Part shown: in pieces, positions 1,245-62,600 of the stretch | Position numbering within the stretch: position 1 is the stretch's first letter | Layout of the letters: every line of letters starts with the position of its first letter | Source of the DNA: Azolla caroliniana | Taxonomy: Eukaryota; Plantae; Polypodiophyta | Length of the DNA: 64,000 nt | Direction of reading: 5' to 3' | NCBI GenBank assembly: GCA_043228905.1 | Contig: JBHGNT010000016.1 | Location: 8,556,001-8,620,000 of the forward strand | Notes under the pieces: model-generated | The model's input: only the letters and a program-made list of their open reading frames with translations | The model's database searches: none | What the model was told of the DNA's origin: nothing | Translations under genes and position numbers: made by a program

Positions 1245-4200
1245 ATTGGTTCCACAATCGTCGGGTCCAGGCACCCGATCTCCTCCGATGAGAATGCGAA
1301 GGCCTTCCCTTGCCTCCCGAGCATTCTCCGAAACCAGTCCTCCTCCACCGGTAGTAGGAAGCCACCCCCACCGATCTTGAGCTCCTGTAGCATTTCGTTG
1401 GTGAACTGGTGTCCTATGCCGGCCGGATTTCGTAAACTTGGGTCCGACGCGACCCCCTTCATCTGTTCCTCGCTACCCTTTGGCAAGGGAGCTGCGACTG
1501 GCCTCACCTTTCGGTCCATAGTCATGTACTTCGTACCTACGCAGGCCGTTCGATCTGACTCGACCTTTTCCCCAAAGTTGGCAATGACTTCGTAAATTTC
1601 TACGGACCTAACCGGAATCACCCGGTCTTCACATGGGCCTCCTTTGAAGACCTTCCTTATCTCTTCTAGGGTGTTGTCGAAAGAGACTGCCTCCACGGCG
1701 CTGCTAATCTCTTCGTCGGGGTTGAGAGCTCCGCACGCCCTAAGACACTTCTCTGCTCGCTTCCTTTCTTGGTTGTTGACGCCGGTTATCGTACAACCTC
1801 TGCTATCGGAGAACCAAAACTTCCTACCTATGGCACACGTGTGGGGTTCTTCCGGGGTGTCCGGACTATCGCGGCCCCACGCCTTGATAGCCCTCTCTAA
1901 AACTCCTCTTGGCCATCACTACCGAGAGTCTCACGGGTGCGCTCGTGGTTCGGTCGTACTGTCAAGAATTGGACGGAGTGATGCCCATCTTGGCTTTTCA
2001 CCCGTGTGTACGCCGAACCGTTGTCCAACACCTTGGTTTCCATACGAGCTGCCGTAATGTATGGCTCTCCAAGGATAACTGGGTATGAGGACGTTTCCTG
2101 CACGAAGAAGTGCTGGTCTATTTCGACGTTGCCGATCTTTACGCGCACATTCGGGCACACTCCGTTCAATTCATTCGTAGCGCGTGTAGCCGCGCGTATT
2201 TTCCATCCGTGCTTGGTGTTGATTGGCCATTTCCCCTTTTGTAAAAGTCCATGGACATTAGGTTGATTTTGGATCCATGGTCTATCAATGCTACCACCGG
2301 CTCCTGAACGTTCCCAATCCGGACTGGGGTCTTCGTAGTAGCTCTTGCCCAATGTATCTTCGAGTAGTGGCTCTCCGCCAAAACATCCTCCAAGGCGTCC
2401 TCCTCCAGGTGCGCCGTCCGCACTTCTACAAGCTTCTCCGGTTCCGGCTTCGTCGAGAGCCATTTACGCTTTACTAAGTTCACGATGGAATCGTGGAACT
2501 CCTTTTTCGCGATCCCGAGCACTTCTCTCAACGACAGGTCCACCTTGCTGTCGAGGATCCGCTCTTTGAGGACCTTCTGCAAGTCCGTCGACCTCTCTAT
2601 CTCCGTGCTCAGCCGGTAACCGGCCTGCTGCGTTCTGTCCGGTACATCAGAATTACCAGCATCGTTCCTTTTTGGTCCAAACCGAGTCTCATACCGATTC
2701 GGGGGTCCAGTCCCTCCTGCGTTTCCCACACGCTTGTCCTCTACCAGAACTTCGTAGTTTTGGCATGCCGCTTCCACAAATCCGGTCTTCTCCTCAACCA
2801 GATCGGACCACCCTGTGAATTCCCGGACCCGTTGCTGTGCGTGGTCCACTTCCTCCCTCTTCAATCGTACTCCAAACAGGCCTTCTAGTACTGATGGCCA
2901 GAATCCGGAATCCTTCATCTTTTGGCCTCCGTTGGCTCCGACCTGGATCCTAGCCGACGCCGAATAGTGGACGGCCTCCGCATGGCGCGCCGCAACTTCT
3001 TCCATCAATCACTTCATTCTGCCGCGCCCGATATTCATCTCGAGGGCTCTCCGAGTGTCACTAGCATGCACTCGCCCATTCTACAGGTAAACCACATTAT
3101 TTCTGAGCGCTTCCATAAACTTTGCGCAGTCTCTCCTACTGTGTCCGACCTTGTCGCACCACATGTACCGCTGTTCGGCCGTAGGCCTCCGGTCGCGCGA
3201 CTGTTCTTTGTTGTCTCTCTGGGCCTGTGCGATCTGAAGATCACGCGCGATCTGTGTCAACTCTTCTAGAGCCGCTCCTCCGAATGGGCCCTTGACCACG
3301 CCGGTTGGGGCCAAGGCCATCTCAAGCCAACTTCGGGTCTCCTCCTTTTGCGGATCGTATGGCTCGTAGATTGGCTCCTCAAGCTTCCTTGCCACGACTG
3401 GTCCCACCGTCGATGAACCCTCGTCGCTCTACTCGCGCCGTTTGTCCAAACGGCCGCAGACTCTCTTTACCATGGCCTAGTTGGCCATCAGCCCATCATC
3501 TGTCTCCAATAGGAGACCCACTTGCTCCTGATCTCGCACGTTCACCGCTTTGACGAACAACAGGACACGACTTGTGTCAAGCACGGTCCTGTCCAATGCC
3601 GAGAGCCGGGCAAAGCGTTCCTCAAACTCCTGGAGGAGCACCGACGCGTTCCTCCCCTTTCCGGGGGTCTCCACCCATTCCATGAAGTCCCACTTTGACA
3701 GTCGAAGTGAGTCATCGAGCCTGTACTTTTCGAGGAGCTGCCCTTCGAACTCTCCCCAGGTCTGGCAGCCAACCTGTACCTCGAGCACCTCTACGTGAAT
3801 GCCCGGTGTCACCACCCGAGGGAATCCATCCAGTCTTTTGTCCTTTGGGACATCCCTCATCATCATCTCAGCCTGGTAGACCTCCAAATAGCTCGTAGTG
3901 TTCTCCCCTCTGAACCGGCCTATTGTGCCGACAATCGATTCGATGGCCTGTCAAGGGCACTTGTGCCTTCACGAGCGTTCACCAGCTGGTCGACGGCTAC
4001 CGCCATGGCTTCGGTGAGTTTAGATCCCCTCATCTTCAACTCCTTTGCCACCTTGATTCACATCAGGTTCACCAAATTATGTCGTGTTGTTACATGTGCG
4101 CGTAGGAAACCAAGGCGGGACCGCGGGGGCCCTGAATCGAGGAGTGAGCAAAAGTAGAGGGAGAAGAGAAGGGAAGAGATGGAATGACAAGAACCGGGGC

Positions 4201-4405
4201 CGGCAAGGAAAGCGCTCGCCGGGGCAGGCGAGAACACAACTACACGCGAAAGGTAGGAAGAGAAGCGCACTCGTTCGGTTACGAAGGACAAGAGTAGATT
4301 ACAGAAGGTCACAACTAGCCCGGGAGAATGCAACTCAAGAACCGATTATTACTAGTTAGTGATTACAACTTTGCTGAGATTACAACCGGCGTGCCGGTGA
4401 CCAAC

Positions 4406-4448
<43 letters not shown>

Positions 4449-4861
4449 GGATACACAGTGGAGCCCTGTCGGAAGCATATGGGCTTCCCACGCAAGCAGA
4501 GGCAACCAGCCAAGAAGCTTGCAGAGATTACAATAGAGATGAAACAGTGCTCAGTTCCCAGTCCGACAACACTTCATCCTCCTCAAAAAAAATGTGATCC
4601 CCTCATAGTCTCTCTTCTCCCCTTTTTATAGGCCGCTGAGGGTGGTCTGTTACATCCTAGTTACATCACCTTTTATTCTCTGTCCCTTCGGATAGAGATA
4701 CGCCTTTATTTGCTAGTCCTATTAATATGTTTATATTTACATCACGCCAACCTATTCTTAAATAAGCTACATTAACTTAAATTGGTGTGTATTCGTGTAC
4801 GACCGACCCGTTCACACGCTAGGACTCCCATTTCCTCCTATCGCCGGTTTTCTCCACGACA
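1245..4861 (-). mobile_element. Ty3/gypsy-like element A (tRNA-Trp primed): 5' LTR 4080-4861, degenerate gag, protease and start of RT
   Basis: LTR TGTCGTGGAGAAAACCGG...CACGACA on the minus strand. PBS TGGTGAACCTGATGTGAATC at 4055-4074. Gag knuckle CDKVGHSRRDC, protease ALIDHGSKINL and pre-RT AFAFSSEEIG occur in frameshifted ORFs. Confidence 0.85.
4410..4445. repeat. (CA)n microsatellite inside the LTR of element A
   Basis: Uninterrupted CA run. Confidence 0.95.
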
Positions 4862-5256
4862 TCGTCTTTCCTTCCTTCGATCATGTGCTACGTACTGGCA
4901 CTACTGTAGCGGATAACCGGAATTTGTCGTCGGCGTTTCGAACACACAATTACAAAGAGGCGGATGGGCTTAGTGGATGTGCTAAACCACATGCTCTGAT
5001 ACCATGTTAAGAATTAGGTAATTAAGCAAGGGATAATTAGTACCTAATTATGTGATTAAGTTAAGTGGAAGATTAAGTGATATGTGTGTGTATGTGTGTG
5101 AGAGGAAGAGAGAGAGAAGTACACTTATGAGCAACACAAGATGGGGGATGATGAACTCTATATTAAATTAGCATCATCATCATCAAATACAAACACACCC
5201 ACAATGAGGTATATTTACAATTCATGTGCAATGGTGCACATGTGTGAGTAGAAACA
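4862..5256 (-). mobile_element. 5' end of Met-primed LTR element C (LTR about 5005-5256, PBS 4993-5004)
   Basis: GCTCTGATACCA (reverse complement of the tRNAiMet PBS) abuts a TGTT...AACA segment. Integrase C-terminal coding of element B resumes at 5257. Confidence 0.65.
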
Positions 5257-8200
5257 ACGGCACGTACCACTTAGCGGAACTCGACGGGACACGGTTAGCG
5301 GTACCGGTGGCCGGGAAACAGATCAAAGCGTTCAAGAAGCGGTTCGAGGACGAGTGTTGTAGGTTTTAGGGTTAGGGTTAAGGACGATGATGATGATGAA
5401 TGATAACTATGATGATTGGTAATGAAGATAGACATGGTGATGGAGAGTATGATGGTGAGAGAGATCATATAGAGAAGCATTGCGGGGTGGGGGGTGGTGC
5501 CTAGAACGGCCCCACCCCCCTCCCAAGGGGGTTCAACGTGAGAGAGGGAGAGAGAAGAGAAAAGGTGTCAAAGAGAGAGAGATTAGAGAGAAAATGTTCA
5601 TTCATATTTCATTCATTCCCCATAAGGGGTTAAATAGCACAAGAGGGGGTAGATACATAGGGGTGTAAGCCCCCTCGAGCATTCATATTGGACACTCACT
5701 CACACCTCCTCGTATCCATCCACATGCACACACGTGTGCATGTGTTCACCTACGTATAGACTCACAATTACATTTATGTCCCCTACACATACACACCAAC
5801 ATCATGATAACATTCGACCCTCGCTCATCACACTGACTCTCCGTACATCTCGTACGGGGTAACACAATATGGCACGCCCGTGGGAGAGTGCCTTGCACGT
5901 CGATCCCACATGCCTTGATGATGATATTTCTTCGACCGGAACTTCCATCGGTCCTTTCAACGATTGACTCCCTCGATCGGAGTGCTTGACTCGACCATCT
6001 TTGTTGGTCAGCAAATCTTCCGCGACACGAACATTCTCGTTCTGTCGACTTACGAACTTCGTCATGGGTCCAAAAATGTTGTGTGTATGTGTATCTTCCT
6101 TTTGTTGATTTTGTGAGTTGTCGTGGTCGATCACGTCCATTTCTTTAGGTGGATGAGTTTTTAAATTTAAGTATTGAAGCCTGAAATTTTCTAAACCAAT
6201 GACAATGCCCTTGGATTTTGAAAATTGTATCATGTACCCTCATGTTTTTATAATTCCAACAATGCCCTTAAGTTTTTCTTTTTTCGAAAGTAGTTTCGAA
6301 ATTCCTATGGTTCTCTCTTCTTCTTCTTTTTTTTTCCTGTCTCTGATATCATTCTTTGCTTCCTCTTCTCTGTTTTCTTCTTTCCCACTGCCAGGTTTAC
6401 TTTTTCTTTCTTCTTGTCCGTTTCTATTCTTCTTTCTTTTTCCCTCGTTTTCCTTTCTGTCCACGTTGTTTCATTTGCTTCTTCATCTTACCTATCTTCT
6501 GTTTATCCTCTATTTCTTCTTCTTCATCAGTGTATTTTCTTGCGGTTTCGTCCTCTTCTTTTTCCTTCTTCCTTGCTTTTGTCTTCGATTCCATCTCTCT
6601 TTCTTCTTAGTTTCTGTTGCTCTTCTTGTTGTTGCTCTCCTTCTCCGTGCAGGTCATCCATCTTTGTCACCGTTTCGGCTATCATCCAGTTGTCGGTGTC
6701 CTGCACTGTCGCCATCTGGACGTCGTCGTTGTCGTCCCATTTGCGTATGCGTCTGCATCTCTATCTCTGTCTCCGGCCGTCATTGTCTCTGTCCGTCACT
6801 GTCGTCCGTCAGTTCGTCCTCGTCCATCACTGTCTGTCTGTGTCTTCGACTCTGTCCCGTCCATCTATCTGATCCGGTCGTTATTGTCTTTCTGGCCCTC
6901 CGGCCACTATTCCGTTGTCCGGCCCGTCGTTTCAACGTCAACGCCGTTTCGGCCGTCGGCTGTCCGACAATTCCTGTCACTTTTCGGCATGGTGTCGTCG
7001 TTCCGGTTGCTGTCTAGTCGCTTCTAGGGCCATTCCAGTTGTCTGTCTGGTCGTTGATTTTTGCCGCTGGTAGTTGTCTGTGTTCGACCCTATCTTTCCG
7101 GTCCTCCGTTCATTTGTCTAGCCCATCCGGTCCGTCCGCCTCCGGTTTCTCACCGTTCGGCCACTCTGACCGTTATGTGTCTTTGCACATTCCGGAAATT
7201 GATCCAGCCCCTATCCGGCGGCTGCCGCTCTGTCGCTGCCACTGTACGACTGCTGCTCCATCCGGCGGCTGTCGCTGTCTCGAACCGACTAGGCCGCTAT
7301 TGGTCAGCCACCACTCTAGTTGTTGCTATGTGGCCACCGCCGTCCTATCGTTGTCCCGGCTCCGTCACCGTTTCAACTGTTTGGCCCATTCCGGTCGTCG
7401 TTTGGCGGTTCTCTGTCCAGCCCGTCTAGCCACTGTTCGGCTATTCCAACTGCTTCGGCCGCTCCTCGGCCACTATTTGGCCCACCCGTCCGTCGTTCCA
7501 ACTCCAGCCGCCTCCGTTCGGCCACTACGATCGCTCTTAGGTCACTCTCCGGCCTCTCCTCCGTCTCTGTCGGTGTCCGGTCGTCGTCCTCCTCTTTCGA
7601 CTGTGCGTTCGGTCCGTCGTCCCAGCCGTCTCGTCCACTATTCGACAATCGGTGTGGCCGCGCCGTTCCGGTCTCACCGGCCTTTTCCATCATTGTCTCG
7701 GCTGCTGTCCGACTGCCTTTGTTGCGGACTCCATCATCGTCTCTGTCGGTTTCTGTCCATTTGAGTCCGCCTTTGTGTATCCGGCTCCATTGCCATCTCT
7801 GTACGGCCATAGTCCGGTGTTATTGCTTTTTTTTGCCGCCGCCGCCGCCGCTTGTTGTACGGCCTCCTTCGTTTTTCCTGACGTGTTCGTCCGGCCATCG
7901 TTCATCCGACCGCCTCTATTCCGCTTCGAATGTTGTCCGGCCCTCGCTTTTCCGCTACTCTGGCCGAATCTCTCATCTTTGTTAGTTGTCTTGTTTCCCT
8001 AGTGTCTCCATCGCCATTGTCCAGCGTCGTCATTGTCTGGCCCGTCCGGTCCGGCCGCCTCCGTTTCGGCACCGTTCGGCCACTCCGACCGCTCTCCAGC
8101 CACTTTGGCCATTTCTGTGCATTTCGGCCGCTCCTCGGATGTCTGTCTGTTGTCTTCCGACTGTGCGTCTAGTCCGTTTTCCCGGTCATCTGTCCGGTTC

Positions 8201-10180
8201 TCCGGCCACTCTAGCCACTGTCTGGCTATTCCGGCCAGTTTTCGGCCCTACTGGCCGCTCTTTCCGCTGCCTGGCTCGTCTGGCCATGTCTGTGCGGTCA
8301 ATCTCCAGATGTCTCTATCGCCGGCCTTGTCGGCCCTGTTCAGCCAGTTTGCAGTCGGTCGTCTGTTTTGGCTGAGGTTCGCCCGTCACCGTCCGATCGT
8401 CGTCCGGTTGCTCTTCAGTAGTTGTCCGGCCATTCCGACCGCTCTCCAGCCACTTCGGCCGCTCCGGTTGCTCCTGTCCGGTCACTCTCCGGCCTATCCG
8501 ACTGCTCGAAGTGTTGTCCGGCCGTCTCCATCTTCGTTGTTGTTCGGCACAAACGACTATGTCTTTCCGGCTGTCCGGTTGTTGTCGTCCCGCACATCTT
8601 CGGTCCGGCCATCGTTGTTGTCGATCTCTGTCATTCCAGTTATCGCTATGATTGTTTCTTCTTTTTTTTTGTTAACATGGCCATTTCCAACGCATTGTGG
8701 TCGCCATTTCTTGCACATTACCGATTCGATTTGCTACTCATCATAAATTCGATTTCTCGCACATCATCGTCACCATTATCACACATTTCGTCGTTGTTGT
8801 CTCTGCCACGTATTAATCTTCGACTTCGTCTCCAAAGGGGGGTCGCCTTAGTGGTCGCCAAAAGGTGTTGTAGGTTTTAGGGTTAGGGTTAAGGACGATG
8901 ATGATGATGAATGATAACTATGATGATTGGTAATGAAGATAGACATGGTGATGGAGAGTATGATGGTGAGAGAGATCATATAGAGAAGCATTGCGGGGTG
9001 GGGGGTGGTGCCTAGAACGGCCCCACCCCCCTCCCAAGGGGGTTCAACGTGAGAGAGGGAGAGAGAAGAGAAAAGGTGTCAAAGAGAGAGAGATTAGAGA
9101 GAAAATGTTCATTCATATTTCATTCATTCCCCATAAGGGGTTAAATAGTACAAGAGGGGGTAGATACATAGGGGTGTATGCCCCCTCGAGCATTCATATT
9201 GGACACTCACTCACACCTCATCGTTTCCATCCACATGCACACACGTGTGCATGTGTTCACATACGTATAGACTCACAATTACATTTATGTCCCCTACACA
9301 TACACAACAACATCATGATAACATTCGACCCTCGCTCATCACACTGACTCTCCGTACATCTCGTACGGGGTAACAACGAGCTGGGGCCGGCGAGCGAGAG
9401 CAACGACGACGATCAGTTCGGGCCCGGCGGTGAATCGGAGAGCGACGAGTGAAGCCGGTTTTCTTCGGTGTCTACCCATCTCTGGCGCATGCCGGTGGAT
9501 GCGCGGATTGGTGGGGGTGGATGTCGTGAAGAAAACCGGCCATGGGCGGAATCGGAGAAAGAGGCGCATGAACCGGCTCTTACACGGATGGACGTGAGAA
9601 TTGATATTTGGGTCGGCTGATGTAAATACTAGGTAGTATACATTTAATAGGGGATTGTGCGTATCTCTGTCGAAAGGGACAGGGAATAAAGCGGTTTGAC
9701 TAGGAAGAAAAGGGGCACCCCCTTTCGGGGGGGGGAACTATTAAAGGGGGGATAGAAGGAAGAATCAGGATCGCGCGTTGGTGAGGACGAAGTGCTGATG
9801 TAGAACCGAGTGCCAAGCTCTCTCTCCTCCGATCGTCGTTCTCTGTGGGTGTCGGGAGTTCGCTGCCTCTGCGTCGTGGACAGCCTGTGTGCTTCCAACA
9901 GAGTCTCTCTCTCTCTCTCTCCCCTTCCCCTTTTGTTTCTTCGAGTCGGGTGGCTGTTGTCGGTGTGCGTGAGTAGGACCCCGTGTCAGGTCCATTACCG
10001 GGTTGCCGGTTGTAACTGTTCGTGTTGTAAACTATTGATTATAGTAATTGGATTCCTGTTTTCTTGCTCTTAATCTCTTTCTGTGTACTTGCTACTCTCT
10101 CTCTCTCTCTCACTCTTTCCTTGGTCCAAGGCCCCCGTGGCCCGGCCTCTTCCTACACGCGAACGCGAAACTTCGCGACA
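5257..10180 (+). mobile_element. 3' end of Trp-group gypsy element B: integrase C-terminus split by element E, PPT, 3' LTR 9522-10180
   Basis: 5256-5354 joined to 9381-9452 reads NGTYHLAELDGTRLAVPVAGKQIKAFKKRFEDE|LGPASES...*. GGTGGGGGTGGA precedes TGTCGTGAAGAAAACCGG...CGCGACA. Confidence 0.8.
5355..9375 (-). mobile_element. Intact non-autonomous LTR element E (LTRs 5355-5864 and 8866-9375, TSD ACGAG)
   Basis: 510-bp near-identical LTRs with TG...CA ends. ACGAG flanks both sides. PBS TGGCGACCAC at 8851-8860. No gag/pol motifs in the 3-kb interior. Confidence 0.92.
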
Positions 10181-13100
10181 ACGTGAGCAAAGGCGTACTC
10201 GACGCAATTCATTCCGATATGTTGGGAATCAAGAACCATCGTGCCTTTTATTACTGCACGAGTGTGAACACACTTGTAGCACACTTTTGACTTGTATATA
10301 CATAATATCTAAAAACCAAAAAAGAGGCACACTCTTTGTACCCAAGACAATGGTGCGGACGCCATGAGCTTTGGCCATCATTTGCTCGAACTCGGCAGTC
10401 GGCAGCAGATGGTCATATATAATGGTTTAGCCAAGTGGCTAGGTTTGGAAGAGCTCACATGTTTCCCACATGGAGGAGGGGAAAGCACAATCGATTATCT
10501 AATAGGACGCCCTGAAGCTACCCACATGATTAACTCCTTCCGAGTGGCCCCATGTCCTATTGGCGTGGACCATAGTTTCTTATACTTCGAGCTAAAATGC
10601 GATATCTCTAACGTCACCAACTCTAGTCAACCACGCCATGACATCACAATTCATTTCACACATGAGCTCTCTGACATATATGCTCGACATGTTCAAGCCC
10701 ATCTCTCCTCCCTTGATCCCTCCCTACCTTTAGAGAGCCTTAGTACGAAACTCACACACATCCTCCACTCTGCAGCAGTTAGCAGTTTCCCATACACGAA
10801 ACACTCCAATCAAGGTAAAGTAGGATCTATGCCACAAAATAGATGGTATGATGAGGATTGTAGGTGCTTACATAGACAACTTACAATATCGTACCTCAGT
10901 GCTAGTATTACCTCAGTACAAGCTTGTAAAGAAATGCGCAAGATGACACGTCGTAAGAGACGAGCATGGGAAGCATCCCAATATTGGGAACTCTACCATA
11001 TGCTCATGAGTAGCGATTGTGCCACTGCATGGAAGAGATTACGGGAACCAAGACCACAAACACCCATCGAAGATCTCGAAACTTGGCACACTTATACAGA
11101 GAGACTTTACCAAATCCCAAACCAACCACCCATTCCAATGCCTTCTACACCCTGACCTACTGTGGGGACACTCTTCACAACCTCTAGGGTCACGAAGGTC
11201 ATAAAGAAATTACAACATAGGAAGTCCATGGACCACACAGGATTGCGAGCAGAACACATCATATATGCGAGAGAGTGCCTAGCTCCCTTGCTAACTCTAA
11301 TCTTCAATCGTGCCCTTGCAGAGGGTTTTCCACCACAATGGACGATGAAACAGTGGCCCCCATACATAAAGGGGGGGACCCCATGGACCCAAATACTTAT
11401 AGGACCATTATGATAGGTCATACCCTTGCTAAATTATATGGTGCAGTAATGGAGGTAGAGCTTAGCGAGTATATGGAGACCTTAAATCTTCGTGCACCTA
11501 AACAGGCTAGCTTTAGACGAGCCTTCTCCACTATTGATCATATCTTCACACTTAGATGCTTAATTGACCAGACTAAGGCTCGCAAGAAGAAACTATATTG
11601 TTGTTTTGTGGACCTCCGCAAAGCCTTTGACACGGTCCCTAGAGAGCGGTTGTTTGATAGGCTTAAGAGCTTGAGGATACCAGATGACATGGTTTGGGCC
11701 ATCTACGCACTATATGAACAAGTGTCCGGGTGTGTTCGATGCCTAGGCGGCATATCCGATAGTTTCACTAGCACTATTGGTGTAAAACAAGGTTGCCCCT
11801 TATCTCCGACTCTTTTTGGGATCTACAATGATGAGATCACAGATTTTATTGCTCGTAAGGGCGGCAATGGAGTAGTCCTTGGGGATACGCAGGTGCGTAT
11901 CTTGCTCTATGCAGACGACATAGTTTTGCTCTCTTAATCCGAACACGACCTACAAAGGCACCTTAATGCCTTAGATGACTTTTGCACACAACGAGGATTG
12001 GTAGTGAATCTAGGGAAAAATAAAGTCCTTATCTTCCACACGTCGGCCCAAGTTAGAGCTAAGTGTCACCTAACTATCTCCCATAGCCCAGTTGAGGTGG
12101 TTGGATCATATGTCTATCTTGGAGTCACTTTCAGTGCCCGCTCAGGTAAATTTTCGATGACACAAGCAACAAAGGATAGACTTACAAGAGGACATGCATC
12201 CCTCTCACTCCTCGAGAGACAATGCCACCAAGCATACTTCCAAGAGCCACGAACTAAAGGGTGGCTCTTTGGCTCATTAGTGACTCCCTCTCTCATGTAT
12301 GCATCAACGGTTTGGGCTCCAGGACTACCATCTTTCATGTGGATGCAATTAGAGAGACCATTGGTGATGATGTTATCACGCCAACTCCGAAGCAAATCGT
12401 CGGTCCCACATGACATTATTAGGGCTGAGTTCACTCTACCCCCTATGTTAGTAGAAGCACTTTTTCAACTTGTAGTCTTTATCCACAGGATACATAACCA
12501 ACCACTTGATAGAATATCCCACCAAGCCTTTAAGGCTTCTCGAGCACTGTATGAGTCCGGCTATACTAGCTCATGGTATGGCATGGTGGTGAGTTGGCTT
12601 CTTGCCAACGGTCTAGACATTAATAACCTCCCCCCCCTTAAGTACGACCACACGACTGATAACACTTTAATCTCTCATGAGGACCGTAATAAAGTAATAC
12701 GCCAAGAAATATGGCAAATTTATACTCGGTATAAATGGATCACCCCACTAGAGCCACTCCCATCTAAAATGTCGTACTATAAGGAACACTTTATGCACTT
12801 CTCTAAGTTAGGTTTTATCACACGCCCAAAATATCTAGATGTATTCTTACCACATGCACTAAGGGTTGCCATCGGTCAACTTAGAATATCATCTCACCAA
12901 CTTGAGATTGAGAATGGACATACTAATGGAGTCCCTAGGGAGCAAAGGATATGTAGGTTATGCCACATAGAGATAGAGGATGAGTACCATTTTACATGCA
13001 AATGCCCCACCTATGCCAAGATAAGGGCAAAATACCAAGACATACTTGGTTCCTCTCCCACCCTCCCTAAACTATTAGATACACTAGATATAAAGAAATT

Positions 13101-13291
13101 AGGTAGATACATCTTAGAATTGAAAGAACACAGAGAGAATAAGTTACAAAACATTGATAATAATGTTGCTAATGTTTACCAACATGTAACAAATGAAGTT
13201 TTTCAGGAACAGGGGGAGACAATGAATGTCGACACACCTGCACCACTCGGGCTTTTCCTTGATGAAGTAGAAAATCAAAGAAGAACCAAAC

Positions 13292-21600: not shown

Positions 21601-22657
21601 TAGTCACGCAGAAAACCCTACATCTAATGATGAGAAGGCTGAAATGGCTAAGGTTCCACAGGCTTCAATCGTTGGCAGTTTGATATATACGTTGGTTGCT
21701 ACACACCCTAATATTGCCTTTGCAGTGGGAGTGGCTAGTAGGTATATCGCAAATCCCGGCAAAAAGCATTGGGAAGCGGTAAAAGGTATTATGCGATACC
21801 TCAAAGGCACAAAGGACTTGGGCATTTGCTTTGGAAAGCAAAAGGCATCTGTCGTTGGTTTTACAGATGCAGACTATGTTGGTCACACAGATAACCCTAC
21901 ATTTGATGATGAGAAGGCTGAAATGGCTAAGGTTCCATATGCTTTAGCCGTTGGCAGTTTGATATATGCGATGGTTGCTACACGCCCTGATATTGCCTTT
22001 GCAGTGGGAGTGGTTAGTAGGTACATGGAAAATGCCGGCAAAAAGCATTGGGAAGCGGTGAAAGGTATTATGCGATACCTCAAAGGCACAAAGGACTTGG
22101 GCCTTTGCTTTGGAAAGCAAAAGGCATCTGTCGTTGGTTTTACGGATGCAGACTATGCTGGTCACACAGACAACCCTACATCTGATGATGAGAAGGCTGA
22201 AATGGCTAAGGTTCCATATGCTTCAGCCGTTGGTAGTTTGATATATGCGATGGTTGCTACACGCCCTGATATTGCCTTTGCAATGGGAGTGGTTAATAGG
22301 TACATGGAAAATCCCGGAAAATAGCATTGGGAAGCGGTGAAAGGTATTATGCAATACCTCAAAGGCACAAAGGACTTGGGCCTTTGCTTTGGAAAGCAAA
22401 AGGCATCTATCGTTGGTTTTACGGATGCAGACTATGCTGGTCACGCAGACTGCAGGAAGTTTACTTCTGGGTATGTGTTTACTTTCACAGGAGGTGCGGT
22501 CTCTTGGATCTCCAGACTAAAGAAGTGTGTTGCATTGTCTACTACAGAGGTAGAGTATGTTGTTGCAACGGAGGCATGCAAAGGGGCTTTATGGCTTTCA
22601 TATCTAGTGATAGATCTTGGCATTACAGAGTTACCTATTCTTCATAGATGTACTTAA
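18615..22657 (+). pseudogene. gag-pol pseudogene of copia F
   Basis: Fragmented ORFs 18615-19616, 19609-20463, 21004-21603, 21527-22324 and 22337-22657 with copia domain order. Confidence 0.9.
21577..22449 (+). repeat. 279-bp in-frame tandem triplication (plus a partial unit) in copia F RT/RNase H
   Basis: The peptide NPTSDDEKAEMAKVPY...GFTDADY repeats with a period of 279 bp. Confidence 0.95.
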
Positions 22658-29717: not shown

Positions 29718-30366
29718 TGTCGTGAAGAAAACCGTCCCTTAGCGCAATTGGTGTATAGCGCGCGCGAACCGGCTCTTCACGCGTGCACGCCCTCTAATGT
29801 ATATAATAAAGGATTAGGAACAAAGGTATATCCTAGGTAGTTAGATTCGGTAGGTAGGAAGTTAATGAGGGAAACGGCTCCCTTCTTGGAGCTATAAAAG
29901 AGAGGGAGGCGCGGGGAGAAAGGGATCGCGCATTGAGGAGGACGAAGTGTTGTCGGACCGTAACCGAACGCTTCTCCTCTGTTCATTCTCCATCGTTCTT
30001 CTCTGCAGGATTTCGGGAGGCTCGCGCTGCTTCGAGGAACGCCCGTGTGCTTCCGGCAGCACCTCCATCCTATCCCCTTTCGTGCGCAGACGAGCAGGCA
30101 TCGGCATCTGTTCGCCGGCCTGTTCGGTTGTAACCGCTCGCATGCTCTGTTGTTTTGTGTCATTTGTTAATATACAAACATTTGTGTCTCTCTGCCTCTA
30201 TGCCCATTCGTGTTTTCTGCGTTGATGGGCCGTGTCCCTGTGTTTCTTTGCTCATACGTAACCAGTCGTCTCTCTCTTTCTCTTCCCCCTCCTATCACCT
30301 GCTCTTCGGTTTAAGACCCTGGTGATCCCGCCTCGTTTCTCCACGCACGTGCGTAGTAACGCGACA
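29718..30366 (+). mobile_element. Solo LTR of the Trp-primed gypsy group, 4-bp TSD GCGG
   Basis: TGTCGTGAAGAAAACCG...CGCGACA flanked by GCGG at 29714-29717 and 30367-30370. Confidence 0.88.
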
Positions 30367-30375
30367 GCGGAAACT

Positions 30376-38196: not shown

Positions 38197-39566
38197 TGTC
38201 GTGAAGATTTTCGGCAACAGTGTGAAAATTGTGTGGAACAGACAAAATTGAGAAGGTGTTCATTACACAAAATATAAAAATAAACCTAGGGCCTATTGAG
38301 ATTGAGTGCGTATAGAGAGGGTGCAAGCAAGATTTGAACCTTGTACCTCCAATGTAGAAGAGAATTGATTTACCACTAATACTATTATCATATACTTTAA
38401 ACTTTATGTATTTACTTTTCATATTCAAATTACATACGAAACAACAATACAAAACTGTGTGCACAAAACCATGGTTTTAAGCCAATGGTTTTGTGCATGT
38501 CACAAAGCAAAACTGTGTGCACAGAAACCATGGCTCCAAGCCCATGGTTTTGTGCATGGACAAACCTATAAAAACCCCTAGTAGGGCTTGTGTAAAGGGG
38601 GGCTCAATTTGGAGATCATCATCATCATCATCAATAATAATATAATACTCTTCTTATTCTTCTTCTTGACATTTATTTACTTCTCAAGTGTACAATCTTT
38701 CATCTTATGAAGTGTAATAGTGTTTCCTTGACTCTTAAAATTGACATCGTTCTCTTTACAATAACTTGGCAAACATCTTCCCTGGTCCAAGACCCCGGTG
38801 GTCCCACTCAAGTAGCACACGTGCACACGAATCTTTGCGACATCATTTGGTGAACCCGACATGAAGAGCGGCAAGGGAGGATGAAGATGGACGAGGAAGC
38901 TCTATTGGAGGCATACAAATACGAGAAACCGAAGGGACGAGGTTGGCACGAGTTCAACCAATGGGTATATCATCAATGAAGACCCACCAAAGTGCCATGC
39001 ACGCGTTCCTAGTGTTTGAGCATCGTTTTGGTCAAGTCTTAGAGCGGGAACAAAGATTGGTGGGGGTGGATAAGGTCCTGTTGTTCGTGAAGTCAATTGA
39101 TCGGAAGGAAAGGAAGCCAATTGAAATCAATCTTGAGGATGATGATGGAGCAAATGGCCTCACCGAGAATTGGGCCAAAGTCAAAAGAGTATGTTGGCAA
39201 CATGACAAGAGGAAGATGGGAATCTTGTCAACAATGTCACGACCCATGAGGGACGATCGAAGGAGGATGAGACGCGGCAACATGCCACCACCGAAGGAAG
39301 AAAGATCAAAGAGGGAAGGCTCGAGAATACTCGACATAGAAGTCTTTATGAGAGAGGCATTTGAGAACTTAAAGTCACAAGTCGAGGTTGAAGAGAAGCT
39401 TAAAATGGAGCCCAAATCGAGGCGAATGATGATCGAGGAAGAAGAGACCTCCCAACAAAGGTGGGTTACTGAAGTGGTTGATACAAAGGCTCAGGTTTGG
39501 TATGACAACGCCAAGAGACTTCAATTTGATTTATTGTATATTAAGAGGCTACAATATGAGTTATGA
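38197..39566 (+). mobile_element. Truncated Trp-group gypsy V: 5' LTR 38197-38842, PBS from 38848, gag remnant
   Basis: TGTCGTGAAG...TGCGACA then TGGTGAACCCGACATGAA. Gag VLLFVKSID...DDDGANGLTENW is homologous to the gag of element A. Confidence 0.82.
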
Positions 39567-50100: not shown

Positions 50101-52349
50101 CAATATCCTGATGGCTTCCATGAGAACGTTTTCATCAATTGATTTACCAGTTAAGTAATTCTCAACTGCATGTACCCTAATGGCATGGGCATTGCCAAAT
50201 GCACCGAAAGCTATTTTGGCATCCAGAATAGACCTCTCTGAACTTCCTTCCGACCGGCATGATATAGTGACCAAGAATGCTGCATTAACGAATGCCAAAG
50301 CATTTCCTAATTCACGGGGAGCCGCTCGATAGCTTTTGAACAACCGCTGCCGGTTTGTACTTAGTGGAAGGAAAATGGATTCTAGTAACATATCTGGCTC
50401 AGGGAATCCCTTCTTCATGAACTCTTCCAAAGCCATGATGGATGGCTCCCCACGAGACGCAACCAACTTCACTGTCGCATCAATCACGAGGAATAGAGGT
50501 ACTAAGTCTGAGGCAAAGCGCAACCGTTGGGCCATGATGAGGTTACCTCCGACACTAGCTCGATGGCGGACATGGGGGTTCGCTACTTTCTTTAAATGTG
50601 AAACGAGACCATCAGTTACAACGTTATCATAGTTACCACACATCCCCTCGAGTAAACCTATAAGCTTCTCTATAGTAACAGCGGCCCCTATTTCAAGCCC
50701 AATGGGTGTCTTTTGAACGGCTAAAAGCTCTGGAATTCGGCTTATATCCACATACACTCTAGAAGGGACTGAGTCTTTATAGTATCCCCAACTGGTATTC
50801 CCAACAGTGAGCTTAACCCTGTTTCTCTCCCCACATTGAATTGACTCCTGCAAAACTTCAAAAGCATGGTGTAAAGAGCTTGCTTGGACCCATAACCTCT
50901 CCTCTGCTATAGTAAGACCTTTGGTAGGCTCTCTATATCTAATAGATAAAGGTGGGGGGGCATCGAGCTCCTTGCGATGTAAATATCTGAGATTGATTTC
51001 TTGGATGAGGAAGTCTGGGAAATCCGGGTGGATTGGAGCAGCAGTACAAGTAGTGGTAGCGCCGGCTGCCGGTGCCAGTAGAGGCGGAAGAGAGCAGAGG
51101 TTAGCGTCTTTACGGGAAGCCCAGAATTTGTTGATCCCTAAGTCTTCCACATCAACTTCAGCTGAGAAGCTCTTGCATGCATCCAGGATGGGGCGGTAGC
51201 CTGTACAGCGGCAGATGTTGCCAACAATGGCTTTCTGTGCATCGGAAAGGGAGAGCGTTGGAAGAGTATACTGGAAAGGGGATTTACTGTGTGGTATCAT
51301 TGTAAGAGAGCTGCTGGAGGTAAGGCTTGAATCATGGCTGCTAGAGTTAGGGTTGGAAGTAGGTATTATTCCGTTACCTGCTGCAGTGGAGCCATTAGTA
51401 AGTGTAATGAGGAGGGGGTTAGTAGCAGTTGAAGGGTGGATGTTATGCAGTCCATCAGTGAGGAGATTATGTTGTGGTGGCACAGGAGAGGATGAGGCAT
51501 GAGTGCTAGGGTTAGGGTTAGGGTTAGGGTTAGGGTTTCCATTGGTGGTGGTGGTGTGCAGCAGGCAGCTGGAGAGGGCAATGCACATACCGGGGGTGCA
51601 GAAGCCACACTGGGAGGCATGGAAACCGGCGATGCGTTGTTGGACGGCGGAGAAGGAGGAGGAGGAGGAGAGGGCTTCGATGGTGGTGATGGAGCAGCAG
51701 TGGAGGGAGCAGAGGAGGGCAAGGCAGGCATTGATGCTGGAGTGCTGAAGCCGCCGGTGGGGGAAGGCGGGGTCGGGGTCGTAGGAGGTGCAGAGGACGA
51801 GGCAAGCGCCACAACCGCCTGCCCGTGAGTGAGTGAGTTAGATAGATAGAAAAAAATTAAGATCACTAAAAAAGGGGGAGAAAACTACAACTGTAGTGAT
51901 GAATGGATGGATGGATGGATGGATGGATAGATAATTAATACATACATACAAACAAATTACAATAGCATAGCATAGAATAGAATTATAGAAAAGTGACATG
52001 GATAGTAGGTAGTAGATAGTAGATAAGAGAGTGGTGGTGTACCTTCGGCGCAGGAGAGCTTGGTGCCGGTGAAGCGCGTGTGGGAGCGGAGGAAGGAGAG
52101 GAGGGTGAGGGAAGGGTCGGGCGACTCCACCTCCACCCGCTCCCCGTTCAACGCCAGCACCACCACATTATTATTATAATTATTATTATTATTCACACTC
52201 ACACTCACACCACTACCACTACCACTACCACTACCACTACCACTACCACTACCACTACTGCTCCTCCTCTTCCGCCAGCCCGCCTCCTCCGCCTCCGTCA
52301 CTTTAGCCGACGCCGCCTCCACCTCCGCCTCTTTCGCCGCCGGCGCCAT
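41182..52349 (-). CDS. AO: Aldehyde oxidase (indole-3-acetaldehyde/abscisic-aldehyde oxidase family). Exons 52349-52043, 51818-49764, 49551-49283, 48977-48774, 48618-48400, 48316-47345, 44041-43946, 43858-43760, 43583-43394, 41432-41182
   Basis: All introns GT-AG and the exon total (4662 nt) is in frame. 2Fe-2S motifs GTKLSCAEGGCGAC, QCGFCTPG and GNICRCTGYRP; FAD domain; Moco motifs GGGFGGKV, AMRAPG, EIGQGL, IEGAFVQG, KACGEPPL. Lacks the XDH-diagnostic GGKE and AFRGFG. Confidence 0.93.
45060..45470 (-). pseudogene. Highly decayed LINE RT remnant in AO intron 6
   Basis: WVMNWIIPIHKGRDK resembles the 'PIHKGGD' segment of LINE G. Confidence 0.55.
51507..51538. repeat. (TTAGGG)4-5 repeat within AO exon 2, encoding an Asn-Pro repeat
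   Basis: ctagggttagggttagggttagggttagggtt; the minus strand encodes NPNPNPNPNP. Confidence 0.9.
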
Positions 52350-52387
52350 CTCCAAACGGACAGCGACACCAACACCAACAACACCAG

Positions 52388-52429
<42 letters not shown>

Positions 52430-53559: not shown

Positions 53560-55384
53560 ATCGAGCGCCCATATTTCCCTTTTTTAGTCTTCTTCTTATT
53601 TGCCTTTTTATTTCCTTTTTTTCCGAATAAAGGGTACAGTTCTCCCCATTTATTATATTAGTTCACGTTAAAATGTGTAAAGTACACCAGTACATGTATA
53701 ATAAACACTTCTATCTACATACATATGTACATTATCTACCACATTACCCTATCTAGTACAGTCCTCTCCATTTATTACTGAACTCCTCTAAAACCGATAC
53801 TCATCACGAACACCAAAAAGATATTGTAATCTTCCTATATGTATTTCAGGACCACCCATTTGTGACTGTCATCTTGTCACCTAGATAATTTTAAGAAAAC
53901 AAACACCATGTACCTTCGTGGTTGGGATGCCAAGGCGAATATACCCATTTAGGCGTGGTGTATCACCATTTTATTAGTACTTTTATTATTTCATAATCGT
54001 AATTATCCATGACACAGTTCCACACATAAAGAGTCCACAAAGCATCATGAGTCATATGCATACCACACTGTAACACATCCGATGTGTTGACGGGTTCCAT
54101 GATTGGAACCGCAACACACCACCTAGATGGATTGAGCCGAGGGTCTTTCTCGACAGATAAAGAAGGCGCCCATGACTCAGGATAAGAGTCGTGGGCTTCT
54201 ATGTCTTCTCGATGGATGGAGAAGACCCCCATGACTCAAGGTGTGAGGCATGGGCTTGTGGGACGTGTACTATTGCCAAGGTGCACACGGGGAATGTAAC
54301 CTCTAGTGCATTCAATACCCCAAAGTATGCAAGTACCTATGTGGGGGATGGGAATCTCCCTAGTGACTTGTATTCAATACCATTATGATGGATATAGGGT
54401 ACTCATGTACTATATGGGGAAACTTATGAGAGAATGAAGAGGATCTTCTATATAAGCTGGACAGAGGGTGGTTGGGCGGAGGTTCAATGGATCCAAATTC
54501 TCTCACTTAGTCATTTACCCCCTTAGTCGAGGAGTGTTGACAGGCGAGTCCGAATCCAAACAGCAATCCAACCTTATTGCGAAATTTCTAGCCCCCACAC
54601 ACTCTCGAGTTATACATGCGTTGAGACTCAAATTTATCTTTACTTACGGTTACATTGAGATAATGGCTCTCATGATTTCAACCTTTTCGGTTGCTTCTCG
54701 AAAAGCTAGTATTTCTAAGACGAAATATTGGTTGTCTCAAATTACAACTTATACAAAAAGGGAGGTTATGAATCATGATATTTGTCTCTTTTGGGAAATC
54801 ATTCATACTGCAACACTTTTTGGATAGCTATTTCCTTTCGGTTTGTGGAAAAGTCATTATGTCTACAAATAAATCATTAGTGTGCATTGTCTCAAAGTGC
54901 AAATGGGAAGGTTGTGATTTTAAAGACAAACCATGACACTTTTTGGACGTCTAGTTGTAGAGTGACATTTTTGGGTGTGTAATGTTGAAAAAAAATTGTA
55001 ATTTGGGAGGTTATGACTTTAAAGATAAACCAAGATTATTTAGAATGCTCGGAAGCCTAGAATGTTACAGCCTGTAGGGCAAAAATTTGACAGGTGTCAT
55101 GCCTATCAAAGGCCATTTTGCTCGTCAAAAACAGACACCCAATGAAAATGTCTGTCAAGTGACATATAAAGTTTAAATTTCTTTTTTCATGTGAAAGGTA
55201 CCTAAATTTTATATATGTCAAATGACATGCTAAAATTCTATTTTTTCCATGTCATGACTTGTTATATATATATACACATAGAACGTAATATTCGTGTTCG
55301 TGCAAGCATTCAAACGTTTGGAAACGAACACTTTTGAAATGGGAAAAATATGTGCTCCTTTTTTTTTCATTTGTTGTCATTACA

Positions 55385-56122
55385 ATTCAGCTCACCCTAG
55401 TGGTAAGGAGTCATGCTATTGTTGTCGATGTCTTGGGTTTGATTCTCAATTTTCTCATCTCTCTCTCTCTCTCATTAGTACCATGTCATAGCAAATTTTT
55501 ATGTTAGTGTTATAATAGGTTTTTTCTTTTATTTTTGTACTATTAGAATTAAGCACAACCTAGTGGTAAGTTGCTATGCTACTATTACTTGTGTCTTGGG
55601 TTCAATTCCTAACTCTCTCATATCCTCTTGTTAGTGTCATGGTCCTTTTTCTTCTTTTTCTTTCTTTCTTTCTTATTAGAAATTAGCTCACCCAAGTGGT
55701 AAGTTGTTATGCTACTACTACCTATGTCATGACAAAATTTTATGTTAGTGTCATGTTCCTTTTTCTTTCTTTCTTTCTTTCTTTCTTTCTTTGTTATTAG
55801 AAATTAGGTCACCCTAGTGGTAAGTTGTTATGCTACTACTGCCTATGTCATGTTTTCTTCATATTCTCGAATATAAGTTTTATGAGTTTTTGATCATTTC
55901 TTTCTTTGTTATTAGAAATTAGGTCACCCTAGTGGTAAGTTGTTATGCTACTACTGCCTATGTCATGTTTTCTTCATATTCTCGAATATAAGTTTTATGA
56001 GTTTTTGATCATTTCTTTCTTTGTTATTAGAAATTAGGTCACCCTAGTGGTAAGTTGTTATGCTACTATTGCCTATGTCATGTTTTCTTCAAATTCTCAA
56101 ATAAACGTTTTATGAGTTTTTG
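55385..56122 (+). repeat. Tandem array of six tRNA/SINE-like units; the last three are near-perfect 115-bp repeats
   Basis: (T/A)AGTGGTAAG at about 55398, 55561, 55695, 55815, 55930 and 56045. B-box-like GGGTT(C/T)(A/G)ATTC appears in the first two units. Confidence 0.8.
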
Positions 56123-56353
56123 AACGTCTGATTATAATTTATAATGACATATTTTGATTCAATCTCTATAGTTCATACTCCTTTTTTTGTAAAGTTCTAA
56201 AATGAGGATGATAGAGATGTCTTGATTCACATCCCAAAAGTATGCATGTGATACAATGCAAATATTGCAACCATACTTATGTTGGTGGTTCACAATGGAT
56301 TAGAGTCCATTTATTGGGATTGAGAGTGAATCAATATATAATATAGACCCTAG

Positions 56354-56630: not shown

Positions 56631-56684
<54 letters not shown>

Positions 56685-59600: not shown

Positions 59601-62600
59601 GTGCATTACGTCTCATCGGTGGCCTTGATCGGAAGGAGGTCTGGTTTTGCTTACCGGCCAGGCAGTCGATGCAACTCTCAAGATGCACGTTCTTGACCAG
59701 AATGAGGTTGTCATCGGCAAGCCTCTTCATTCCCTTCTCGCTCATGTGACACAGTCTCTTGTGCCACAACTCACCAACAGTGTCGAATGCAACGTTCACT
59801 TCTTCCAGGCATAATCGGGCATTCATCAGGTACAGTGTGTTGACCTTCCGAGCCCGAGCTCTATGAGGCTCCCTTTGCTGAACTTCATGACACCGTTCTG
59901 GATGCTACCCGTGTAGCCTTCATCATCCAACCGACCGGCTGATATCAGGTTCAATCGAACCTCCGAAACCTGTCGAGCATCCTTCAGCAACAACTTGCAT
60001 CCGGTTGGTGTTGTCAACTACGTGTCTCCTATGCCGACAATTCAGCATGTACCTTCATTCCCCATCCGGACATAGCCATGTTCACCGGCTGTGTAGGATG
60101 AGAAGCATTTCCTATCCGGGGTCAGGTGGAACGACGCCTTGGAATCGACAACCCACGTTGTCTCGTCGTCAGCAAGGTTCAACTCACTCTCCTCAGTGAT
60201 GAGCATCAACTCCTCCTCACTTGCTACGATTGCCGTCATTCCCTTTCGGTCCGGACCTCTACGGTTTTTGATGTTCCAGTCCGTTGACCGCTTCGAATCG
60301 GTACTGTCAGTTTCCTTGTCTTTCCGGAAGTGCCCCGGTGTCGTGTGGTTTTTCACACACGATATGAAAACTATGTAAAAAAATAATGAAATAATTATTT
60401 TAGATTAGATTAGTAGCTTGTTATAGAAAGATGGATGTACTCAAGAGCTTTAAAACGCATTTCACTACATACAAAATAGAAGTTATGAGAACATGAAGCT
60501 TGAGAAGATAGGGAAAATAGAAATTTGAACTATCCCACATAGATAGGAAACTTAAGGCCCTGGCTATTAAGCACATTGAGATCCCTCATTTTTCATTTGT
60601 GCTAAGAGCACTTTGGCCACTTTGTCTAGATGGATGAATGTGGCCAAGTTCCCAAAAAACTGACTGGCAATAAAATGGAACCGGCTGGTAATGGAACCGG
60701 TCGGTAAGCAATCCGGAACTGGCCGAAAAGCAAACAGGAACTAGCCGGAAAGCAAACCGGAATCGGTTGGTAAGCAATTCGGAACCGGCTGGAAAGCAAA
60801 CCGGAATCGACCGGAAAGCAAACAGGAACCGGTCGGTAAGCAAACCGGAACCGGCCGGAAAGCAAACCGGAACCGGCCGGTAATCAAATCGAAACCGGCG
60901 AAACCGGCAATCAGATGGAGTCGAAAACCGGGCGAAGCCGGCAACCGGAAACCAGCGACCGGACAGAATCGGCGACCGAACGAGGCTAGACGCGGACCAG
61001 ACGGATTGGATGGGTGGCGATCGAGACGGACGGATGATAGGATCATGTGGCAAATTAAAGTAAAGTAAAAGAGACTAAAGTAAAGGCCATATGGACAATC
61101 GCATGCAACTAAAAGAAAAAGCTATGCAACTAAAAATGGATGCAACTAAAAGAAGAGGCCATGCAACTAAAAGTGGGCATGCAAAGTAACATGGAAGGCT
61201 ATGATCAACAGAGAACTCCATATAAAATTCCATTTTTTTTTTCCTACTCTCATCCTCTCTCCATTTTTTAGTTTTCGTTTCCTTCTTAACTCCCTTATCT
61301 TATCGAAGCGATAAGACTCAAAAACCCTAAATTTCCCTACGAAAGCCATAAACCCTAAATTTCCTTACGGAAGTCATAAATCCTAATTTTCCTTATGGAA
61401 GCCATATCTCTCATAAACCCTAATTTCCATACATAAACGATTAAACTCATAAACCATAATCTCTTATCAAAGCCAAAAAACCTTACTTTTCTATCGAATC
61501 CATATCTCAAATTCTTCTAATCTATTACTCTAGCAGTCTCCATTAGTTAAACTTTTTGTAATTCCAATTTTGGGATTGATTATAATCTTTCTTTTCCTTT
61601 GTTAATGAAATTTATCAATCTTTCTTATTTCCATTAATTGTTTAATATAAACATACGAATCTGATATTCTCTGGTCGGAGGCCCCGGGGTCCTGCCTCAA
61701 ATTCACGTATCCTCGTCGTATTTTCATGACACCGGCTTGCCGCAATAGAAGCAAGTGGGCCTCCCCCTTGACTTTGACCGTGTCCCCGACTTTTCTCGGT
61801 TCTGGGGACTCCAATTCCTTTGTCTTCCGTGTTTCGATTCGGTAAGGAGCGCTTTGGAGTCGAAGCTCATATCCTTGTCTTTCCAACGTGCCTCCTCATC
61901 TAGCAAGCTCGACTTGACTCTTGCAAGGGATAAATGTTTTCCTTTCGGCCCGGCGTTGCCGAAAGTGACAACTAACGTCTCCCAGCTATCCGGGAAGGAA
62001 CTGAGCAGGAGTAGAGCAAGTACCTCATCGGCGAGAGGTACTTCCAACGAGGTTGCCTGGTGAATCAGCCCTTGGAAGGCATTCATGTGCTCCGCCATAC
62101 TAGAACCGTCTTGGTACTAGAGCCTAACTAGCTTCCGAAATACCGAAACCCGATTAACAACATTTTTGTTCTGAAACATGATGCCGATCTTCTCCTAGAG
62201 CTCATGAGCCTTACTCTCCTCATTAAAGTTGTTGTACAGGCTCATGTCAATGAAGCACCGTATGTATGCCGTTGTCTTCATGTGCATCACCTCCCAGATC
62301 GTGGCATCGATCTTGTCCGATCTCTTGTCCCCGAACTGAACCGGAAACCAGAGATCTTTGACCACGAGCATGTCCCTCATCTTTGACTTCCACACTAAGT
62401 AGTTGGAGCCGGTGAGCTTGAACATGCCTCCCAATGAATCTTCCATTTTCTGTGTCGTTTCGCTCTGATACCAGATTGACAAGAATATGCGGAATAATCT
62501 TCGGCCACAACCGAGACTTAGATCACTTAATGATAATCAAACACAGAAAGATGAGAAATGGAAGTAAGTACACAAACAGAAAAAAAAGAATGCATAGGAT

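What the first reader, a model, noticed from the sequence alone, without database searches (positions are those of the whole stretch)
4055..61735. tRNA-Trp-primed gypsy-like group with 4-bp TSDs that appears to integrate specifically at CpG
Seen: five LTRs with TGTCG...(C/T)GACA termini at 4080-4861, 9522-10180, 29718-30366, 38197-38842 and 60339-61731. The two with both flanks visible have 4-bp TSDs (GCGG, CCGG), whereas every other LTR element here with both flanks has 5 bp. The single visible flanks are TCGT (4862), ACGT (10181) and CCAC (38193). Four of five sites are N-CG-N. Inference: the fifth was CCGC and decayed CG to CA, because the host copia codon there is normally Ala (HWNAIKW in copia Z, HWEAVK in copia F). 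Established: most plant LTR elements give 5-bp TSDs with weak sequence preference. A CpG-centred integrase would steer the element into CpG-rich, methylated TE bodies, and all five copies here lie inside other TEs.
Basis: partly seen in the sequence, partly recalled or inferred. Interest (0 to 1): 0.8.

Follow-up and report, generated by a model that had tools for sequence, protein, structure and literature searches.

The report
Phygy-type retrotransposons insert at CpG
A large family of plant jumping genes in this genome sits almost only at CG dinucleotides, likely because its integrase picks that sequence itself, a habit already in print for the Phygy lineage of mosses, to which this family most likely belongs.

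Summary
For one LTR start motif, 1889 of 2152 genome-wide junctions that face host DNA are N-CG-N (88%; background CG 2.9%). Another 164 are CA/TG/TA, about what later CpG decay predicts. Of 48 complete elements, 33 have identical 4-bp NCGN duplications, 7 show CG decayed on one side, and none has 5 bp. All five LTR types share a tRNA-Trp PBS, one PPT and TGTCG termini. A and C are LTRs of autonomous gag-PR/pol families (B by its ends); D and E belong to gag-only families without pol. The phenomenon is published: Neumann et al. 2019 list Phygy with 4-bp NCGN TSDs and a tRNA-Trp PBS, and Phygy is reported from a liverwort and ferns. The features tested fit Phygy except length; phylogeny against Phygy references could not be run. 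New here: near-absolute CG choice, a palindromic V-CG-B motif, gag-only partners and candidate integrase contacts. Random CpG picking explains most of the enrichment in repeats. Dependence on methylation is untested. An unreviewed note of this scan reported NCGN duplications in a probably fungal genome.

The parts
1..33 (-). End of a sixth LTR of the same group (solo, about 720 bp, mostly upstream of the window); flank CCGG at 34-37, other flank CCTG
   Evidence: 94% over 561 bp to locus L337, which holds a Trp-PBS element
1242..4079 (-). Internal region of element A: gag-protease and the start of pol, broken by stops and frameshifts; pol is interrupted by a nested element and continues upstream of the window
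   Evidence: 67-86% aa identity to the open-frame copy in L059
4058..4074 (-). tRNA-Trp primer-binding site of element A
4080..4861 (-). 5' LTR of autonomous element A; TSD TCGT at 4862-4865, matched at the partner LTR upstream
5254..5354 (+). Remnant of the pol 3' end belonging to truncated element B, then interrupted by a 5-bp-TSD element (5355-9375)
9510..9521 (+). Polypurine tract of element B
   Evidence: same tract precedes 1648 LTR starts
9522..10180 (+). 3' LTR of truncated element B; host flank ACGT at 10181-10184
29718..30366 (+). Solo LTR C of an autonomous family; TSD GCGG at 29714-29717 and 30367-30370
38197..38842 (+). 5' LTR D of a gag-only family; host flank CCAC at 38193-38196, likely a decayed CCGC
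38848..38864 (+). tRNA-Trp primer-binding site of element D
38865..39566 (+). gag-like fragment of element D; similarity to the family ends near 39507 and no 3' LTR was found
60339..61731 (+). Solo LTR E of a second pol-less family, with an internal 22-bp tandem array (60671-60921); TSD CCGG at 60335-60338 and 61732-61735

Best explanation
These LTRs belong to a group of tRNA-Trp-primed, non-chromovirus Ty3/gypsy retrotransposons that sit in 4-bp duplications centred on CG, most likely members of the Phygy lineage, whose integrase likely reads the CG step directly. Shown: autonomous copies of about 6.6-7.3 kb carry gag-protease and RT-RNaseH-integrase in two overlapping frames, with a conserved GGATTTT run at the overlap; pol-less copies of about 3.5-4.8 kb share PBS, PPT, termini and target motif; the target is palindromic, A>C>G at the first and T>G>C at the last position. 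Inferred: -1 frameshifting at that run; movement of the pol-less families in trans; a foamy-virus-like intasome with a 4-bp stagger that bends the target at the central step and adds base contacts that admit only CG. Candidate contacts are the acidic residue at the position of PFV Ala188 and a conserved Gln-His loop in the C-terminal domain. CA/TG flanks are inferred to be later deamination. Because CpGs are denser in young TEs, CG choice would by itself carry most insertions into repeats.
For: 1889 of 2152 host-facing junctions are NCGN and 2053 are N-YR-N, against 2.9% CG and 20.7% CA+TG+TA in 396 kb of background. 48 complete elements: 31 identical NCGN, 7 one-sided decay, 2 edge mismatches, 8 other; two of the 8 were mis-called ends that are identical NCGN. 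CG transitions between LTR pairs run at 3.6% per base, about 7% per CpG, close to the 8.0% non-CG YR flanks. Left flanks by LTR type: B/C 52 of 64, A 4 of 4, D types 25 of 32, E 11 of 17 CG; no TA among 122. Copia control: 0 of 19 flanks with CG at positions 2-3. PBS matches host tRNA-Trp(CCA) genes, 6 of 6 loci scanned. No chromodomain and no extra RNase H by Pfam. Phygy is listed as 4 bp (100%, NCGN), tRNA-Trp 81%, no extra domain. Integrase model pLDDT 83.5, best matches PFV and Ty3 intasomes; Glu/Asp at the Ala188 position in 97 of 97 rows, Gln 91 and His 90 of 97 in the loop.
Against: No Phygy reference sequence could be read, so membership rests on diagnostic features, not on a tree. Elements are shorter than the published Phygy range (7656-9968 bp). 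Elements with a decayed TSD were not older than those with an intact one (median LTR identity 0.990, n=6, versus 0.972, n=13; p=0.86). One solo LTR has identical CCAG on both sides. Six of 48 complete elements stay unresolved and 99 genome-wide junctions are neither YR nor matched by the PPT pattern. Insertion flanks are CpG-richer (14.5 versus 12.0 per 250 bp, p=0.025) and more often inside the same group (12 of 50 versus 51 of 600, p=0.002) than random CpG picking predicts. The contact residues are assigned by analogy; no DNA-bound model was made.
Confidence: 0.8

Rival explanations
1. The intasome, or a host factor tethering it, selects methylated CpG, so the element actively aims at silenced DNA.
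For: Flank CpG density and self-nesting exceed the random-CpG model. LTR pairs show CG and CHG transitions at 3.6% and 3.9% against 0.8% at CHH, so these elements are probably methylated.
Against: No chromodomain or methyl-binding domain in pol by Pfam. The repeat excess over random CpG is marginal (41 of 50 versus 414 of 600, p=0.055) and purging of insertions in genes would give the same. The background rests on 40 stretches, so the self-nesting null is noisy. The Drosophila ZAM integrase binds its CG-rich site in vitro as a bacterially made protein (PMC2527525, passages).
Confidence: 0.12
2. The integrase only prefers a flexible pyrimidine-purine step, as 4-bp-stagger retroviral integrases do, and CG dominates because of local base composition.
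For: All 4-bp-TSD retroviruses favour a central YR step and disfavour T and A at the TSD edges (PMC4422553, passages); the same edge avoidance is seen here (32 and 59 of 1889).
Against: CA, TG and TA are each more than twice as common as CG in the background yet together make 164 of 2053 YR flanks; no TA in 122 sampled junctions; no complete element of 48 has an identical non-CG duplication.
Confidence: 0.02
3. The group is not Phygy but TatI (also 4 bp and tRNA-Trp) or a separate, fungus-related lineage that reached the same target independently.
For: TatI is listed with 4-bp TSD and 75% tRNA-Trp. The top atlas look-alikes of the integrase are fungal clusters. Elements are shorter than published Phygy.
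Against: TatI carries an extra archaeal RNase H in 100% and none is detected here. Only Phygy is described with NCGN. The named pol homologues among the best 120 that carry an organism name are all from the liverwort Riccia sorocarpa, 52-67% identity. The atlas hits are feature scores, not a phylogeny.
Confidence: 0.06

Closest known systems
Phygy, non-chromovirus Ty3/gypsy lineage (Neumann et al. 2019, PMC6317226; passages and Additional file 5 read)
   Same: 4-bp TSD with NCGN preference, tRNA-Trp PBS, no chromodomain, no extra RNase H, polyprotein filling the internal region. Also named from a liverwort (PMC12885004, passages) and ferns (PMC13477047, one passage).
   Different: Autonomous copies here are about 6.6-7.3 kb versus 7.7-10.0 kb. 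ORF layout is 'ND' in that table, here gag-PR overlapping pol. Gag-only partners and the V-CG-B detail are not in the passages read.
Ginger1 DNA transposons (Bao et al. 2010, PMC2836005; passages)
   Same: Gypsy-like integrase with GPY/F motif, TGT termini, 4-bp TSD CCGG (75%) or CCGT/ACGG (24%).
   Different: DNA transposons with TIRs and no RT; narrower motif led by CCGG, whereas ACGT leads here (24 of 122 left junctions).
ZAM of Drosophila (PMC2527525; passages)
   Same: LTR retrotransposon with a CG-rich target (CGCGCg) that its integrase binds directly.
   Different: Longer motif plus a second nearby site; insect element.
Prototype foamy virus intasome (PMC4422553, passages; structures)
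   Same: 4-bp stagger, central YR step, T/A disfavoured at the TSD edges; best structural match of the integrase model.
   Different: PFV accepts any YR with weak preference; here the step is nearly always CG and the Ala188 position is Glu/Asp.
TatI (PMC6317226 Additional file 5)
   Same: 4-bp TSD, tRNA-Trp PBS.
   Different: TatI has an extra RNase H and is about 9 kb; no NCGN preference listed.
TR-GAG gag-only non-autonomous LTR elements (definition recalled; term seen only in a search listing)
   Same: D-type copies have LTRs, PBS, PPT and a single gag-like ORF without pol.
   Different: Here they carry the CG target signature, which ties them to one helper integrase.

Membership tests
Phygy | 4-bp TSD | tested here: met
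   33 identical and 7 decay-related 4-bp TSDs among 48 complete elements, none of 5 bp
Phygy | NCGN target preference | tested here: met
   1889 of 2152 junctions
Phygy | tRNA-Trp PBS | tested here: met
   PBS complementary to host tRNA-Trp(CCA) genes, 6 of 6 loci scanned; same PBS in all LTR types
Phygy | Ty3/gypsy domain order RT-RH-INT without chromodomain | tested here: met
Phygy | No extra RNase H, no extra ORF, polyprotein spans nearly the whole internal region | tested here: met
   gag-PR and pol fill element positions 789-6454 of 7326; no further Pfam domain
Phygy | Typical length 7.7-10.0 kb (descriptive; the authors rate size as weak for classification) | tested here: not met
   most uninterrupted autonomous copies measure 6.6-7.3 kb
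Phygy | RT, RH and INT cluster with the Phygy clade of REXdb | not testable with these tools
   Additional files 1 and 3 are too large to read; the RT tree holds no Phygy reference and a single long-branch outgroup
TatI | Additional archaeal RNase H domain | tested here: not met
   no such Pfam hit in pol, its N-terminal 241 aa or the RH-INT linker
Chromoviruses (Tcn1, Galadriel) | C-terminal chromodomain | tested here: not met
   absent in pol, present in the neighbouring element at window 13737-15026 used as positive control
Fungal Ylt1-like elements | RT/INT clade membership | not testable with these tools
   no reference sequence; fungal clusters top the atlas list; passages of PMC2864245 and PMC5014426 give no Ylt1 target motif

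The most novel reading that the evidence does not exclude
The integrase of this lineage reads methylated CpG itself, without a chromodomain, and so steers a very successful retrotransposon group and its gag-only passengers into DNA that is already silenced, including its own copies.
Probability: 0.12. Interest if true: 0.75.

Novelty: new member of a known kind. Interest (0 to 1): 0.3.

Why it matters
The preference is known as a table entry and one sentence. In seven searches I found no paper that explains or tests it; the library lacks most subscription journals. This genome holds thousands of young copies, enough to measure the motif and to ask whether methylation matters. A near-absolute two-base choice is unusual for an integrase of the retroviral type. 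It makes a clean model for base readout at the bent target centre, and for how an element can avoid CpG-poor DNA without a chromodomain. Each duplicated CpG also serves as a small clock of deamination.

Tried and rejected
Unrelated families: rejected, since all LTR types share PBS, PPT and termini. Generic YR preference: rejected. Age test of decay: no support, small sample. Extended motif beyond the TSD: only weak biases, C 44% at -1 and C 8% at -3 in 95 left flanks, not mirrored in 59 right flanks. A named Physcomitrium homologue as a proxy for Phygy: none among the 120 listed or in ten clusters. Metagenome relatives (80 loci, 54-95% integrase identity): many keep the PBS or PPT and TGTCG start, but their TSDs were not scored. 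Host lineage: only weak evidence; of four hits of a host aldehyde-oxidase-like ORF among long proteins, two are ferns at 42-43%, one an unnamed transcriptome protein at 43% and the top-scoring one a yam fusion protein at 33%. No tRNA gene in the window. Pfam finds nothing in the D-family ORF; atlas hits to gag are leads only (0.81). PMC8282616, PMC9033089 and PMC13469084 (passages) only list the lineage name; PMC6911290 (passages) confirms 4-bp TSDs and nesting of Phygy in Tcn1; PMC4005685 was seen as a listing only. No methylome or sequencing-run look-up was made.
Full report
Observation. The five LTRs, their termini and flanks are in the sequence as stated. A (4080-4861) reads on the minus strand. 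Its partner LTR lies 4.2 kb upstream of the window, 91% identical, and the element is flanked by TCGT on both sides. B is the 3' LTR of a truncated element, C and E are solo LTRs, and D is a 5' LTR whose element breaks off near 39507. A sixth LTR end with flank CCGG lies at 1-33. Three other LTR elements in the window have exact 5-bp TSDs. The five LTRs align to each other only in short patches, so they are several families.

One group. Thirty loci each for D and E and 70 loci or stretches for the B/C motif show the same PBS, the same PPT and TGTCG...GACA ends. The PBS is complementary to host tRNA-Trp(CCA): a pattern built on it has 63 genome matches, and 6 of 6 scanned loci hold a tRNA-Trp gene. 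Autonomous copies carry gag-protease (726 aa) and RT-RNase H-integrase (1167 aa) in overlapping frames, with a conserved GGATTTT run at the overlap; -1 frameshifting there is inferred from recalled slippery motifs. Pfam finds no chromodomain and no second RNase H. Of 20 stretches fetched for D and E relatives, the complete uninterrupted ones measure about 3.5-4.8 kb and carry gag-like sequence without pol.

Target site. The 17-base LTR start of the B/C families occurs 3800 times. 1648 follow a PPT. Of the other 2152, 1889 follow N-CG-N and 2053 follow N-YR-N. The 99 left over include PPT variants that the pattern missed, so 87.8% is a lower bound. CG makes 2.9% of dinucleotides in 40 background stretches of contig 1 (396 kb), a 30-fold enrichment. 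In 48 complete elements paired by alignment, 31 have identical NCGN, 7 differ by CG versus CA/TG, 2 differ at the last base and 8 were scored other. Two of these 8 were mis-called ends and are identical NCGN; six are unresolved. None has a 5-bp or an identical non-CG duplication. Among 18 rows scored solo, 8 are identical NCGN, 5 decay-related, 1 identical CCAG, 1 an edge mismatch and 3 appear not to be true solos. The motif is palindromic: first base A 52, C 29, G 16, T 3%; last base T 51, G 34, C 12, A 4% in 95 left flanks; genome-wide T first 32 and A last 59 of 1889. In the copia control 19 host flanks could be scored from 30 loci; none has CG at positions 2-3.

Decay. Between paired LTRs, transitions hit 125 of 3516 CG bases, 74 of 1878 CHG and 72 of 9148 CHH (22 pairs). 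About 7% per CpG matches the 164 of 2053 (8.0%) non-CG YR flanks, so the target at insertion was likely close to 100% CG. Against this, decayed TSDs were not on older elements in a sample of 19. For D, 21 of 29 homologous copia sites keep the CG and 10 read CCGC, but 3 read CCAC without any insertion.

Steering. For 50 sites sampled in position order on contig 1, the 250 bp of host flank hold 14.5 CpG, against 12.0 next to random CpGs and 7.4 at random positions. Repeat hits: 41 of 50, 414 of 600 and 263 of 600. Hits to the same group: 12 of 50, 51 of 600 and 18 of 600 (tests). The autonomous elements are themselves 9.9% CG. CG choice alone thus explains most of the shift into repeats.

Mechanism. 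The integrase has HHCC, a D,D,E core and a GPY/F C-terminal domain. Its model (pLDDT 83.5, 57-row alignment) matches PFV and Ty3 intasomes best. PFV cuts with a 4-bp stagger, unstacks a central YR step and touches bases through Ala188 and Arg329 (PMC4422553, passages). The residue aligned to Ala188 is Glu or Asp in 97 of 97 rows. The loop before the GPY/F motif carries a conserved Gln-His; its match to the Arg329 loop is recalled, not aligned here. I infer direct readout of CG at the bent centre. Recognition of methylation is open.

What is known. Neumann et al. 2019 state that Phygy elements prefer NCGN and tabulate 186 elements with 4-bp NCGN TSDs, 81% tRNA-Trp and no extra domain. Phygy is also named in a liverwort and in ferns. 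Named pol homologues are from the liverwort Riccia, and the genome's RT copies group together with them nearby in a tree that lacks proper outgroups. TatI shares 4 bp and Trp but has an extra RNase H. Ginger1 DNA transposons and ZAM show similar CG-centred targets; the Ginger1 lead came from note e1-10582392, which reports NCGN duplications in a probably fungal genome and which I did not check beyond reading passages of that paper. The host is probably a seed-free plant; moss or fern is not settled.

Verdict. A real, very strong and already described target preference in what is most likely a new, abundant set of Phygy families. Interest 0.3. The open and testable question is whether the integrase needs the CpG methylated.

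Noticed in passing
window 5355-9375, and the element from upstream -1288 to 1244: Two LTR elements with 5-bp TSDs carry a PBS-like site after the 5' LTR and, in place of a PPT, an inverted PBS-like site just before the 3' LTR. Several earlier notes of this scan describe the same design elsewhere in this genome.
   Followed up: partly
loci L361-L410, L164, L172: A next to the LTR start is more common than its mirror image (59 versus 32 of 1889, p=0.006). Of 9 such elements with both ends read (20 tried), 3 had identical TSDs, 5 differed only at that base and 1 differed more; two D-type elements show the same. Some may be CHG decay, but four C/T-to-A cases suggest that the A from the PPT side is sometimes kept at the junction. 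The sample was selected for this base.
   Followed up: partly
L164:880-3234: D-type pol-less elements carry one 784-aa ORF, gag-like in its first 220 residues (about 37% to the autonomous gag) with a long charged tail.
   Followed up: partly
window 47306-51837 (-): Host aldehyde oxidase/xanthine dehydrogenase-like gene with long exons.
   Followed up: partly
window 13737-16829 (-): Chromodomain-bearing gypsy element between LTRs 13285-13747 and 17386-17846.
   Followed up: no
window 21577-22450 and 55355-56142: Tandem triplication of a 279-bp unit, and a tandem array of 115-133-bp units.
   Followed up: no
G000:C8:17796786-17823371 and C16:4989495-5105657: Clusters of 14 and 19 matches to the tRNA-Trp 3' half, on C8 mostly at about 1.2-kb spacing; these were not scanned.
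   Followed up: no
L115 and L116; L077, L078 and L085; L188 and L192: Identical host flanks at different genome places, which points to segmental or carrier-element duplication.
   Followed up: no
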